From assembly GCA_964370065.1 (NCBI GenBank), contig CAYJGK010000003.1:12381-76380 (forward strand): DNA of 64,000 nucleotides, in the 5' to 3' direction. Within the stretch, counting starts at the first letter, position 1. Each line of letters begins with the position of its first letter. The DNA is from an uncultured Erysipelotrichaceae bacterium (lineage in GTDB: Bacteria > Bacillota_I > Bacilli_A > Erysipelotrichales > Erysipelotrichaceae). Under the pieces are notes generated by a model. It was not told where the DNA came from. It did no database searches and worked only from the letters and a program-made list of their open reading frames with translations. Positions 56,008 to 58,399 of this stretch are shown piece by piece. Position numbers and translations under genes: made by a program.

Positions 56008-56052
56008 TGTATAAAAGATAGGTGACTAGCTATCTTTTATTTATGAATTCGG

Positions 56053-56222
56053 TTGACACATTACTATTTACATGATATTCTTTCTAAGTAATTCCTATGA
56101 GGGAGTAATTAGCAGTATATGTACTGTGGTAATATCAACATCATGGTGGAAACATCTGGTATTATCTTAAACAATGAGACTCATAGACAACGAATGTGCG
56201 TTGTCTATGAGTCTTTTTTTGA
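56053..56222 (+). promoter_or_regulatory. promoter + about 90-nt structured leader + strong terminator (candidate riboswitch, class unassigned)
   Basis: TTGACA (56053-56058), 17 nt, TATTCT (56076-56081) with TG extension. Leader hairpins at 56108-56132 and GGTG-GAAA-CATC (56145-56156). Perfect 15-bp terminator stem 56178-56192 / 56199-56213 plus T7. ctatgag (56095-56101) can pair with ctcatag (56180-56186) in the terminator 5' arm. Confidence 0.6.
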
Positions 56223-56236
56223 AAAGGAGAAAAATT

Positions 56237-57187
56237 ATGATTTATTTAGCTTATGCATTATTAGCAGCAGGTGTTGTATTTTTATCAGGAAAAGCAAGTC
56301 GTTATGTTGATTTACTAGATAAAAAAACAACATTATCAGGAGCATTTATTGGAGGGGTTATGCTTTCAGCTGTTACTTCTTTACCAGAAGTATTCACTAG
56401 TGTTTCATCTACCGTATTATTAGATAAACCTGGTTTATGTATTGGAAATATTTTAGGGAGTAACTTATTTAACATTGCGGTATTAGCCACATTAGTAATG
56501 ATTTGTTATAAAGGATTTAGTACTTGTAAAGTAGCAAAAGGACATATGAAGGTCTCTATTTATGTAGTGACTATTTATGCAATTATGTTATTAAATTTCT
56601 TACGTGTGTTAAACTTTGACATTTTAACAATTTCAATTACATCTATTTTAATCATTGTCGTGTATGCATTTGCGATTAAAAATTTATCAAGTGAAAATGG
56701 AGAAATAAATGATGAAGAAATAGAAGATGATAGTGATTTAAGTGTGAAACAAGTAATGGTTCGTTTTATTGTGGTGAGTATTGGAATAATCGCATTGAGT
56801 ATTATGATTACGTACGTAACAGATGCAATTGCTATTGAATTGAACTTAGGTGCAGGTTTAGCAGGCGCATTATTCTTAGGTATTGCTACATCATTACCAG
56901 AATTATCAAGCTCAATTGCTTTGTTTAGATTAAAAAATTATAATATTGCAATCGGTAATATTGTAGGAAGCAATATCTTTAACTTTACTATTTTATCATT
57001 AACTGATATCTTATATGTAGGACAAGGAATCTATGATTATTCAGATCCTAAAACAATTAATTTATTAATATTTGGAACCATTGCAACACTGTTCTCTATG
57101 TCCATGTTAAAAGGAAAAACAAAATTAATCCGTGTTGGTTCTGCACTTATGGTATTAGTTTGTTATGGCTTATTCTTAGTTATCTAA
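56237..57187 (+). CDS. Ca2+/Na+ (cation) antiporter, CaCA/YrbG family
   Basis: Start at the ATG at 56237 (AAGGAGA RBS). The ORF-track start at 56174 runs through the terminator hairpin. Two alpha-repeats (SLPEVFTSVSS...GNILGSNLFN and SLPELSSSIAL...GNIVGSNIFN). Confidence 0.85.
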   Translation: MIYLAYALLAAGVVFLSGKASRYVDLLDKKTTLSGAFIGGVMLSAVTSLPEVFTSVSSTVLLDKPGLCIGNILGSNLFNIAVLATLVMICYKGFSTCKVAKGHMKVSIYVVTIYAIMLLNFLRVLNFDILTISITSILIIVVYAFAIKNLSSENGEINDEEIEDDSDLSVKQVMVRFIVVSIGIIALSIMITYVTDAIAIELNLGAGLAGALFLGIATSLPELSSSIALFRLKNYNIAIGNIVGSNIFNFTILSLTDILYVGQGIYDYSDPKTINLLIFGTIATLFSMSMLKGKTKLIRVGSALMVLVCYGLFLVI

Positions 57188-57200
57188 TAGGAGGAACAAT

Positions 57201-58100
57201 ATGAAATATACAATCGAACAAATTCATCAGCTATCAAAAGATAAGGGCTGGATTCAACAAGAACAAATGTATCAAGAAAGATTAGATGAAATTGTACAGC
57301 GTATATTTGATAGTGGAAAAAAATTAATATTATTATGTGGTCCATCAGGAGCAGGGAAAACAACAACAGCATTAAAATTAGAAGAAACAATTCAAAAAAA
57401 AGGTGTAAATGTACAACATATTGCAATGGATGATTATTTTCATTCGTTAACAGAAAATGAAAAGCAATTATTAAATGAAGGAACTTTAAATGTGGAAACA
57501 CCAGATCGGGTCAATGCGATGCTCTTAGCTAAGCAATTACAAGATTTATTATCACTAAAAGAAGTACCTGAATATCATTTTGATTTTAAAACATCTACTT
57601 GTATGAAATTAGAAAACACTTTGCAAATTCAAGAAAATGACTTTGTTATTGTAGAAGGAATACATGTATTTAACCCTGCCGTATTAGATGGATTGGACGC
57701 TTATAAATTATTTGTGTATCCTGCAGATGTAGTAGAAGCCAAGCAAACACGTATTGCTGATTCACAAATACGCTTGTTACGTCGGATGATTCGTAATGCC
57801 TTATATCGCGGACACGATATTCAAAAAACATGCATGATTTACCCAATTTTAACAGAAAGTGAACGGCTATACATCTTTCCCTACCAACATTTAGCTGATG
57901 ATGTGATGAATACTTTTATTCCTTATGAACTGCAAGTATATAAGAGCTTAGTGTTTACTCAACTGCAGCAATATAAACAAGATGATGCGATTGTTAAACT
58001 AATCCAAATATTAGATAAAATAGAAGAAATTTCGGTAGAAGAAGTTATTTCCTCTTCACTGATTCGTGAATTTATTGGAGATAGTAATTATCATTATTAG
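57201..58100 (+). CDS. uridine kinase/phosphoribulokinase-family P-loop nucleoside kinase-like protein
   Basis: 299 aa. Walker A LLCGPSGAGKTTT, IVEGIH Walker-B-like strand, LLRRMIRN lid. Confidence 0.55.
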   Translation: MKYTIEQIHQLSKDKGWIQQEQMYQERLDEIVQRIFDSGKKLILLCGPSGAGKTTTALKLEETIQKKGVNVQHIAMDDYFHSLTENEKQLLNEGTLNVETPDRVNAMLLAKQLQDLLSLKEVPEYHFDFKTSTCMKLENTLQIQENDFVIVEGIHVFNPAVLDGLDAYKLFVYPADVVEAKQTRIADSQIRLLRRMIRNALYRGHDIQKTCMIYPILTESERLYIFPYQHLADDVMNTFIPYELQVYKSLVFTQLQQYKQDDAIVKLIQILDKIEEISVEEVISSSLIREFIGDSNYHY

Positions 58101-58179
58101 GGTGCTAAAGATTTAGATTTATTTCTAAATCTTTTTTATTTTATCTTGAAATATAAACATATGTTTTATATAATAGAGA

Positions 58180-58399
58180 AGTTAAAAACGTTGATAAGGC
58201 GTAGTAATATAGTTTGTTGATTAATAGGGAGTATCGCTCATAGACTGGAAAGCGATTTAATTGATATATATGAATTCACCTTTGAGTGAGAGTTAATCCT
58301 CTCCCGATTCAATCGGTTATCATGAAATTGAGTGTGTCGCAAGATGAAGTAGGATGGTACCGCGTTGAAAAACGTTCCTATACTTGTGCTTTTTTTTTG
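58180..58399 (+). promoter_or_regulatory. T-box riboswitch, phenylalanine specifier (UUC)
   Basis: Promoter TTGAAA-17-TATAAT (58146-58174). Candidate specifier TTC at 58275-58277 followed by A. T-box AAGTAGGATGGTACCGCG (58347-58364). Terminator ending in T9 (58391-58399). Confidence 0.85.

What the first reader, a model, noticed from the sequence alone, without database searches (positions are those of the whole stretch)
56053..56236. Riboswitch-like leader (promoter, about 90-nt structured RNA, perfect 15-bp terminator) upstream of a Ca2+/Na+ exchanger-family gene
A near-consensus extended -10 promoter (TTGACA-17-TGaTATTCT) lies about 150 nt before the start codon. The transcript would contain two hairpins (56108-56132 and GGTG-GAAA-CATC at 56145-56156). 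It then reaches a very strong terminator (56178-56192 / 56199-56213 plus T7) that ends 16 nt before the ATG. The 5' segment ctatgag (56095-56101) is complementary to the terminator's 5' arm (56180-56186). A ligand-stabilised closing helix could therefore act as an antiterminator, the ON-switch logic typical of ion exporters. Directly after that strand comes GGGAGTAA, reminiscent of the GGGGAGUAG element of yybP-ykoY Mn2+ riboswitches. The rest does not match convincingly, so this may be a variant or an undescribed ion-responsive class. Na+ and Li+ riboswitch classes are also reported upstream of cation antiporters, as I recall.
Basis: partly seen in the sequence, partly recalled or inferred. 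Interest (0 to 1): 0.6.

Follow-up and report, generated by a model that had tools for sequence, protein, structure and literature searches.

The report
Manganese-type riboswitch before a CaCA transporter
The leader is a real, conserved metal-sensing RNA switch of the already described three-helix form of the manganese (yybP-ykoY) riboswitch. It most likely turns on a Na+/Ca2+-exchanger-family cation exporter when the metal is in excess, so it is a sound but largely ordinary annotation that the public RNA models miss.

Summary

It is not a new class. It is the three-way-junction (3WJ) subtype of the yybP-ykoY Mn2+ riboswitch, characterised in S. pneumoniae mgtA (Martin 2019, PMC6649816). All expected parts are present:
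- P1
- L1, GGGAGUA on the 5' side and GAGA on the 3' side
- P1.2 and P2
- P3 with the CAACA L3 bulge
- UUAAA in place of P4

Rfam 15 gives nothing at gathering score. The only sub-threshold match is RF02617 "SSRC10" (37.8 bits), the terminated streptococcal leader filed as an sRNA.

- **Conservation:** the motif lies upstream of 47 of 81 CaCA homologues.
- **Covariation:** 95% and 91% of cells pair in two alignments, and 24 of 29 and 28 of 29 pairs carry compensatory changes.
- **Independent model:** a model built without the window hits only 56089-56192 (73 bits, E 5e-17).
- **Regulon:** among 99 hits in 87 of 399 genomes of the class, downstream genes are P-type ATPases (42), MntP (30) and CaCA (14).

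P1 and L1 overlap the terminator, so this is an ON switch. The ligand is probably Mn2+, with Ca2+ possible. Ligand binding was not tested. This is a new member of a known kind.

The parts
56053..56081 (+). Sigma-70-type promoter: -35 TTGACA (56053-58), 17-nt spacer, extended -10 TGaTATTCT (56073-81). The predicted transcription start is about 56088-56090.
   Evidence: 10/12 match, TG present. Relatives have a similar TTGACA/-10 about 10-15 nt before P1.
56095..56101 (+). P1 5' strand (CUAUGAG). It pairs with 56180-56186.
   Evidence: 5-6 of the 6 modelled P1 pairs show compensatory changes..
56102..56107 (+). L1 5' side, GGAGUA (with G56101, GGGAGUA). This is the predicted metal-site loop.
   Evidence: Invariant columns G13-A19 in A1. 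Matches the conserved L1 of yybP-ykoY (PMC6649816).
56108..56110 (+). P1.2 5' strand (AUU). It pairs with AAU 56173-56175. A56111/C56172 is a mismatch in this copy.
   Evidence: All 4 P1.2 pairs covary.
56112..56127 (+). P2 hairpin (GCAGUA-UAUG-UACUGU).
   Evidence: Covariation in 4-5 of 5 pairs.
56128..56166 (+). P3, made of three parts: P3.1 (56128-37 / 56157-66); the L3 bulge ACAUCAU (56138-44) within the invariant CAACA (56136-40); and P3.2 GGUG-GAAA-CAUC (56145-56).
   Evidence: (C48 A49 A50 C51 A52 invariant). C56139/A56140 correspond by position to C49/A50 of the S. pneumoniae aptamer (inference).
56167..56171 (+). UUAAA junction. This is the UNAAA element that replaces helix P4 in the three-way-junction subtype.
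   Evidence: Conserved UUAA(A) columns in A1/A3. PMC6649816 section 12. In L190/L194/L195 a short P4 hairpin is inserted exactly here.
56176..56179 (+). L1 3' side, GAGA (xAGA), followed by C56180, which pairs with G56101.
   Evidence: Invariant A89 G90 A91 C92 in A1..
56180..56186 (+). P1 3' strand (CUCAUAG). It is shared with the terminator's 5' arm.
56176..56220 (+). Intrinsic terminator: 17-bp stem 56176-92 / 56199-215, loop AAUGUG, U7 tract. It is mutually exclusive with L1 3' and P1.
   Evidence: Full leader MFE is -48.0 kcal/mol with the terminator, against -21 to -29 for the aptamer state.
56224..56239 (+). Shine-Dalgarno AAGGAG (56224-29) and start codon ATG 56237.
56237..57187 (+). 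Regulated gene: a 316-aa CaCA / Na_Ca_ex family transporter (YrbG/NCX_Mj-like). It carries two TSLPE alpha-repeat motifs.
   Evidence: Pfam PF01699, E 1.3e-27. NCBIfam matches are below cut-off. Closest solved structure is NCX_Mj, E 1e-11.
57201..58100 (+). Probable second gene of the transcript: a uridine-kinase/PRK-family P-loop protein. It starts 14 nt after the CaCA stop, and its terminator follows at about 58108-58140.
   Evidence: No terminator lies between the two genes. The pairing is kept only in the closest relative, L003.

Best explanation
The 5' leader (transcript from about 56088) is a three-way-junction yybP-ykoY riboswitch, the manganese class.

**Proposed mechanism**
- During transcription the aptamer (56095-56186) folds first.
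- If the divalent metal bridges loops L1 and L3, it holds P1/L1 closed. The metal is most likely Mn2+; Ca2+ also binds the characterised S. pneumoniae member.
- With P1/L1 closed, the 5' arm of the terminator (56176-56192) cannot be captured by its 3' arm. RNA polymerase then reads through into the CaCA-family transporter gene and probably the kinase-like gene behind it.
- Without the metal, the much more stable 17-bp terminator forms and leaves a roughly 130-nt terminated leader, the species recorded in S. pyogenes as sRNA SSRC10.
- The CaCA protein would then export the excess cation.

**Shown here:** sequence and structure conservation with covariation, the subtype-defining features, the overlap of aptamer and terminator, and the regulon (MntP, P-type ATPase, CaCA).

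**Inferred:** the ligand, the direction of regulation in vivo, and the transporter's substrate.
For: **Independent Rfam model**
- RF02617 SSRC10 matches 56108-56220 over its full length (37.8 bits, E 7.9e-6).
- It is also the best hit in the genome.
- SSRC10 is a terminated leader before a 'putative calcium transporter' in S. pyogenes (PMC3675131).

**Conservation upstream of homologues**
- 47 of 81 loci encoding CaCA homologues carry the motif upstream on the coding strand.

**Covariation**
- RNAalifold on a plain MAFFT alignment gives 15 of 18 pairs with compensatory changes.
- A2: 95.4% of cells paired, 24 of 29 pairs covary, slid controls 30-40%.
- A3 (100 sequences): 91.4% paired, 28 of 29 pairs covary.

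**Model built without the window**
- R2 gives 73.1 bits, E 5e-17, as the only hit in the window.

**Subtype features**
- The features listed by Martin et al. 2019 are all present: a 3WJ with UNAAA instead of P4, xAGA, the L3 C/A, and a C-G pair above L3.

**Link to RF00080**
- RF00080 gives sub-threshold, full-length matches to the most canonical-looking members (L067 35.9 bits, L095 33.2).
- Four-way forms with a short P4 inserted exactly at the UNAAA site align to the same model and also precede CaCA genes.

**Regulon**
- Of 99 hits, 42 precede P-type ATPases, 30 MntP and 14 CaCA. Pfam confirms the family assignments.

**Folding energies**
- The nascent RNA up to 56186-56198 folds into the aptamer with P1.
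- The full leader prefers the terminator by about 20 kcal/mol.

**Experimental precedent**
- The 3WJ mgtA riboswitch gives Mn2+-induced read-through in vitro and in vivo (PMC6649816).
Against: - No binding or expression data exist for this RNA.
- RF00080 itself does not match the window even at E<=10. In this copy P1.2 has only 3 pairs, because A56111/C56172 mismatch.
- The downstream protein belongs to a family known for Ca2+ transport, and the S. pneumoniae aptamer binds Ca2+ about 30-50 times more tightly than Mn2+ in vitro. Mn2+ as the physiological signal is therefore inferred from the regulon, not shown.
- CM-fitted alignments lean towards the model's structure.
Confidence: 0.82

Rival explanations
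1. The RNA and ON mechanism are the same, but the physiological signal at CaCA-linked copies is Ca2+, alone or together with Mn2+. The switch would then be a calcium-efflux control.
For: The regulated gene is a Na+/Ca2+-exchanger-family protein that keeps both Ca2+-binding TSLPE glutamates of NCX_Mj. The 3WJ S. pneumoniae aptamer binds Ca2+ with Kd 1.7 uM against 54 uM for Mn2+, and Ca2+ gives some read-through (PMC6649816). Many other targets are PII-type Ca2+/Mn2+ ATPases.
Against: Aptamers before CaCA, MntP and ATPase genes show no class-specific differences in L1 or L3. MntP, a manganese exporter family, is the target in 30 of 99 cases. In S. pneumoniae, Ca2+ stress did not induce MgtA in vivo.
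Confidence: 0.12
2. The element acts mainly as a trans-acting small RNA, as its Rfam relative SSRC10 is filed, and the terminator is constitutive.
For: SSRC10 was seen as a discrete roughly 113-nt transcript on Northern blots in S. pyogenes (PMC3675131). The terminator here is very strong.
Against: A terminated leader is what an uninduced ON riboswitch produces. The element always sits directly upstream of, and on the same strand as, a small set of metal-transporter genes across many genera. Conservation is concentrated in the metal-site loops and in helices that compete with the terminator.
Confidence: 0.03
3. It is a metal-independent attenuator, for example one that responds to pH or pausing as reported for the E. 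coli alx yybP-ykoY element, or a protein-dependent antiterminator.
For: The review cited reports alkaline-pH effects on yybP-ykoY transcripts. No ligand test has been done here.
Against: The metal-contacting L1/L3 nucleotides are invariant across about 150 sequences. No conserved regulator gene lies next to the loci. The target genes are metal exporters.
Confidence: 0.03

Closest known systems
S. pneumoniae mgtA riboswitch: the three-way-junction subtype of the yybP-ykoY (Mn2+) class (Martin et al. 2019, NAR 47:6885, PMC6649816)
   Same: Same architecture: P1, L1 (GGGAGUAG / xAGA), P1.2, P2, P3 with an L3 bulge holding an invariant C and A, UNAAA in place of P4, and a terminator overlapping P1 that gives an ON switch. 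All were checked on the window.
   Different: The downstream gene is a CaCA secondary transporter, not a PII-type ATPase. The host is an Erysipelotrichaceae-like gut bacterium (the nearest loci are so labelled). The last L1 base is A, not G, co-varying with P1.2. Ligand response is untested here.
Rfam RF02617 SSRC10 ('Streptococcus sRNA 10'; Tesorero et al. 2013, PMC3675131)
   Same: It is the only Rfam family that matches the window: full length, 37.8 bits, E 7.9e-6. In S. pyogenes it is a promoter-to-terminator leader before a 'putative calcium transporter'.
   Different: The score is below the gathering threshold of 56, so the window is not a formal member. Rfam files the family as an sRNA gene, whereas the evidence here shows a cis-acting riboswitch leader.
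Canonical four-way-junction yybP-ykoY riboswitch (Rfam RF00080; L. lactis yoaB, B. subtilis yybP/ykoY, E. coli mntP/alx)
   Same: Same L1/L3 metal-site motifs and the same two-leg design. Same kind of regulon (MntP, P-type ATPases). Sub-threshold RF00080 matches to relatives. 4WJ forms align to my model with P4 as an insertion at the UNAAA site.
   Different: There is no P4 helix. RF00080 gives no match to the window at E<=10 or in its genome.
Na+ (DUF1646), Li+ (nhaA-I) and NiCo riboswitches
   Different: No match at E<=10, and the conserved cores are unrelated.

Membership tests
yybP-ykoY riboswitch, three-way-junction subtype (Martin et al. 2019) | Conserved 5' side of L1 (GGGAGUAG) immediately after P1 | tested here: met
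   GGGAGUAA at 56101-56108. Columns G13-A19 are invariant in 38 relatives.
yybP-ykoY riboswitch, three-way-junction subtype (Martin et al. 2019) | 3' side of L1 with an invariant AGA preceded by a variable base, then the P1 3' strand | tested here: met
   G-AGA at 56176-56179, followed by C56180 paired to G56101.
yybP-ykoY riboswitch, three-way-junction subtype (Martin et al. 2019) | L3 bulge on the 5' strand of P3 with invariant C and A (C49/A50), and a C-G pair in P3.1 just above it | tested here: met
   CAACA at 56136-56140 is invariant. The C56136-G56158 pair is CG in 46 of 46 and 98 of 100 sequences.
yybP-ykoY riboswitch, three-way-junction subtype (Martin et al. 2019) | P4 absent and replaced by UNAAA between P3 and P1.2 | tested here: met
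   UUAAA at 56167-56171.
yybP-ykoY riboswitch, three-way-junction subtype (Martin et al. 2019) | Helices P1, P1.2, P2 and P3 supported by covariation | tested here: met
   24 of 29 and 28 of 29 pairs have compensatory changes. 91-95% of cells are paired, against 26-40% in slid controls.
yybP-ykoY riboswitch, three-way-junction subtype (Martin et al. 2019) | Intrinsic terminator that competes with P1 (ON switch) | tested here: met
   The terminator 5' arm 56176-56192 contains L1 3' and P1 3'.
yybP-ykoY riboswitch, three-way-junction subtype (Martin et al. 2019) | Binds Mn2+ (and Ca2+) and raises read-through in response | not testable with these tools
yybP-ykoY riboswitch, three-way-junction subtype (Martin et al. 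2019) | Precedes metal-efflux genes | tested here: met
   A CaCA gene here. The family-wide tally is 42 P-type ATPase, 30 MntP and 14 CaCA of 99.
Rfam RF00080 (Manganese / yybP-ykoY model) | Score at or above the gathering threshold (45 bits) | tested here: not met
   No match to the window at E<=10 or in the genome. Relatives reach at most 35.9 bits. With this tool RF00080 passed its threshold in 0 of 200 genomes of the class, so the model is insensitive to these forms.
Rfam RF02617 (SSRC10) | Score at or above the gathering threshold (56 bits) | tested here: not met
   37.8 bits, full length, E 7.9e-6. The window is a relative, not a formal member.
CaCA superfamily (Na_Ca_ex, PF01699) for the regulated protein | Two Na_Ca_ex repeats with alpha-repeat signature motifs | tested here: met
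   PF01699 at 97 bits with two stretches. TSLPE appears twice and GNxxGSN twice, aligned to NCX_Mj. The curated YrbG equivalog cut-offs are not reached, so the exact subfamily and substrate remain open.

The most novel reading that the evidence does not exclude
The CaCA-linked copies of this three-way-junction riboswitch act in the cell as Ca2+ sensors, or as dual Mn2+/Ca2+ sensors, driving a Na+/Ca2+-type exchanger. That would be the first physiological calcium riboswitch. A more modest version is that this CaCA clade is an unrecognised family of riboswitch-controlled Mn2+ exporters. It is missing from the exporter lists in the reviews I could read, which name MntP, CDF, P-type ATPase, UPF0016 and TerC (PMC9334652).
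Probability: 0.12. Interest if true: 0.75.

Novelty: new member of a known kind. Interest (0 to 1): 0.3.

Why it matters
- **Annotation gap.** Rfam 15 leaves a widespread riboswitch subtype unannotated, or filed as a streptococcal 'sRNA'. I found it in 87 of 399 sampled genomes of the class, and upstream of 47 of the 81 CaCA-homologue loci examined (mostly Clostridia). Models R1 and R2 show it can be found reliably.
- **Transporter function.** The switch places an uncharacterised clade of NCX/YrbG-like CaCA transporters in the same regulon as MntP and Mn2+/Ca2+ P-type ATPases. That predicts these proteins export Mn2+ and/or Ca2+ in gut Firmicutes. In this small genome it is the only gene under such a switch.
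- **Ligand selectivity.** The S. pneumoniae member binds Ca2+ more tightly than Mn2+. CaCA-linked copies are therefore good test cases for the open question of which metal this subtype senses in vivo.

Tried and rejected
- **Rfam at gathering score:** nothing at the locus.
- **Rfam at E<=10 on 271 nt:** no RF00080, DUF1646, nhaA-I or NiCo match. The microRNA and snoRNA 'hits' only reflect the long terminator hairpin.
- **New-class reading:** rejected once the S. pneumoniae 3WJ description was read.
- **Second R1 hit in the own genome** (G000:C1:14304-14373, 27 bits): it lacks P3/L3 and lies inside a coding region with an HExxH peptidase-like frame. Treated as a false positive.
- **Class-specific nucleotides** that might separate CaCA-linked from MntP- or ATPase-linked aptamers: none seen.
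- **Prior reports of the CaCA association:** Dambach 2015, Price 2015, Zeinert 2018, Barrick 2004 and Meyer 2011 are not held. Full-text searches for a 'calcium riboswitch' found nothing, and a search for yybP-ykoY together with CaCA/YrbG terms listed no such paper among its top hits. I cannot say whether the pairing is already in print.

Full report
**Observation**

- A near-consensus promoter sits at 56053-56081: TTGACA, 17 nt, TGaTATTCT.
- The transcript then folds into a P2 hairpin (56112-56127).
- A long P3 hairpin follows (56128-56166). It has a 7-nt bulge and the GGUG-GAAA-CAUC tip at 56145-56156.
- A 17-bp terminator (56176-56192 / 56199-56215) with seven U ends 16 nt before ATG 56237.

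The 152-nt leader folds at -48.3 kcal/mol against -26.9 +/- 3.5 for shuffles, z = -6.1. CUAUGAG at 56095-56101 is complementary to CUCAUAG at 56180-56186, inside the terminator's 5' arm. The downstream ORF is a 316-aa Na_Ca_ex/CaCA protein (PF01699, E 1.3e-27). Its closest solved relative is NCX_Mj, and both TSLPE alpha-repeat motifs are kept.

**Database check**

At gathering thresholds Rfam 15 finds a T-box, a lysine riboswitch and a cobalamin riboswitch elsewhere in the window, but nothing at this locus.

A permissive scan of the 271-nt stretch gives one meaningful match. RF02617 SSRC10 matches over its full length at 56108-56220 (37.8 bits, gathering score 56, E 7.9e-6). The same place is the best SSRC10 hit in the whole 1.53-Mb genome.

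SSRC10 was defined in S. pyogenes as a small transcript with its own promoter and terminator, lying before a 'putative calcium transporter' on the same strand (PMC3675131). That pointed to a conserved leader, not a chance fold.

**Comparative evidence**

Eighty loci encoding homologues of the CaCA protein were fetched. They come from Erysipelotrichaceae, Oscillospiraceae, Acutalibacteraceae, Lachnospiraceae and others. Reading their upstream regions showed a shared pattern: P1, GGGAGUAG, a short helix, a hairpin, GRUAAGUCAACAAUC, a variable hairpin, CUGGYUUAUC, UUAA, a short helix, GAGAC, P1'.

- A plain MAFFT alignment of 38 leaders with RNAalifold gave 18 pairs, 15 of them with compensatory changes.
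- Covariance model R1 found the motif once per locus, on the coding strand upstream of the gene, in 47 of the 81 sources searched (the window and 46 of the 80 fetched loci).
- On that alignment 95.4% of cells pair, and 24 of 29 pairs have double changes. Controls with the 3' partner slid by 1-3 columns pair at 30-40%.
- In 399 genomes sampled from the window's class, R1 hit 87 genomes in 59 of 218 genera.
- The 100 hits gave a second alignment with 91.4% pairing and 28 of 29 covarying pairs.
- Model R2, built from those 100 sequences and not from the window, hits the window only at 56089-56192 (73.1 bits, E 5e-17).

These last alignments are fitted to the model, which favours its structure. 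The MAFFT/RNAalifold result does not share that bias.

**What it is**

Martin et al. [quoted passage not shown]
- a three-way junction
- P4 replaced by an invariant UNAAA
- an xAGA 3' side of L1
- invariant C49/A50 in the L3 bulge
- a C-G pair above L3
- a terminator that Mn2+ overrides

Each feature is present in the window:
- UUAAA at 56167-56171
- GAGA at 56176-56179
- CAACA at 56136-56140
- the C56136-G56158 pair
- the overlapping terminator

The link to the canonical family is also visible in scores. RF00080 gives sub-threshold full-length matches to the most canonical-looking relatives (35.9, 33.2 and 22 bits). In three loci (L190, L194, L195) my model aligns a short hairpin, AUAAC-GAAA-GUUAU, as an insertion exactly at the UNAAA position. 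That is a small P4. The two of these loci that the tally covered (L190, L194) also precede CaCA genes.

RF00080 does not match the window at all. With this tool it passed its threshold in none of 200 genomes of the class. I read the failed formal test as a limit of the model rather than evidence against homology.

**Regulon**

I fetched all 99 usable hits from the class search and classified the first downstream ORF:

| Downstream gene | Count |
|---|---|
| PII-type P-type ATPase | 42 |
| MntP | 30 |
| CaCA | 14 |
| Other or unclear (Na/Pi-cotransporter-like, flotillin-like, ArsB/NhaD-like, TrkH-like; named from sequence only) | 11 |
| No ORF in the fetched stretch | 2 |

Pfam confirmed representatives of the three main groups. 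This is the regulon expected for a Mn2+ (and Ca2+) efflux switch. Aptamers before the three gene classes show no class-specific differences in L1 or L3. The window's genome has this one copy only, and no RF00080 match.

**Mechanism**

RNA truncated at 56186, 56192 or 56198, before the terminator's 3' arm exists, has the aptamer with P1 as its minimum-energy fold (-21.6 to -22.8 kcal/mol). The full leader prefers the terminator, at -48.0 kcal/mol against -21.1 to -28.7 for states that keep P1. The terminator's 5' arm contains both the 3' side of L1 and the 3' strand of P1.

The default outcome is therefore termination. A metal-stabilised L1-L3 dock and P1 would be needed for read-through. This is the ON logic shown experimentally for the S. 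pneumoniae member.

I infer Mn2+ as the main signal from the MntP-rich regulon and from the in vivo data on mgtA. Ca2+ remains possible: that aptamer binds Ca2+ at 1.7 uM against 54 uM for Mn2+, and the target here is a Na+/Ca2+-exchanger relative.

**Novelty and limits**

The class and the three-way subtype are published, so this is a new member of a known kind. Two things are not covered by the sources I could read:
- how widespread this subtype is outside Streptococcus
- its regular pairing with CaCA transporters

The reviews I could read list MntP, CDF, P-type ATPase, UPF0016 and TerC as Mn exporter families. I could not read Dambach 2015, Price 2015 or Zeinert 2018, where the association may already be recorded.

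Earlier notes of this scan reach the same reading in other genomes, and one states that the CaCA pairing is known. I treat those notes as leads only.

Noticed in passing
window 58182-58382 (+): A T-box leader lies directly upstream of pheS (58384). It scores 91.0 bits, just under Rfam's gathering score of 93, so it was not listed in the gathering-threshold scan.
   Followed up: partly
window 57201-58100 (+): A 299-aa uridine-kinase/PRK-family P-loop protein starts 14 nt after the CaCA stop, with no terminator between them. It would be co-transcribed under the riboswitch. The pairing recurs only in the closest relative (L003), so it is probably incidental.
   Followed up: partly
L003:1351-1455: The closest relative's leader (CaCA 78% identical) is degenerate. 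L1 reads AGGAGUA, and the P1 3' strand is mutated so that P1 cannot form, while the terminator is kept. It scores only 24.5 bits with R1. This could be a decaying switch or a MAG assembly error.
   Followed up: no
L004, L009, L012, L018 and other Clostridia loci, 100-250 nt after the aptamer: Many clostridial copies have a two-hairpin expression platform. A first hairpin shares the P1 3' strand, and a separate terminator lies further downstream. This suggests a relay (anti-antiterminator) design instead of the direct P1/terminator overlap seen in the window.
   Followed up: no
L178, L181 (Na/Pi-cotransporter-like); L167, L173 (flotillin/SPFH-like); L164, L182 (ArsB/NhaD-like permease); L148 (TrkH-like): A minority of the three-way-junction riboswitch hits in the class precede genes outside the usual Mn-exporter families. 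These families were named only by eye from the N-terminal sequences, not by a profile search.
   Followed up: no
G000:C1:14304-14373 (L084): A weak second match of model R1 in the same genome (27 bits) has GGGGAGU...AAGAC ends but no P3/L3. It lies inside a coding region and is probably spurious.
   Followed up: partly
window 56015-56046: A hairpin with a T-run (AAGATAG-GTGACTAG-CTATCTTTTATTT) lies right after the glycerate kinase gene. It is the likely terminator of the upstream operon, so the riboswitch unit has its own promoter.
   Followed up: no
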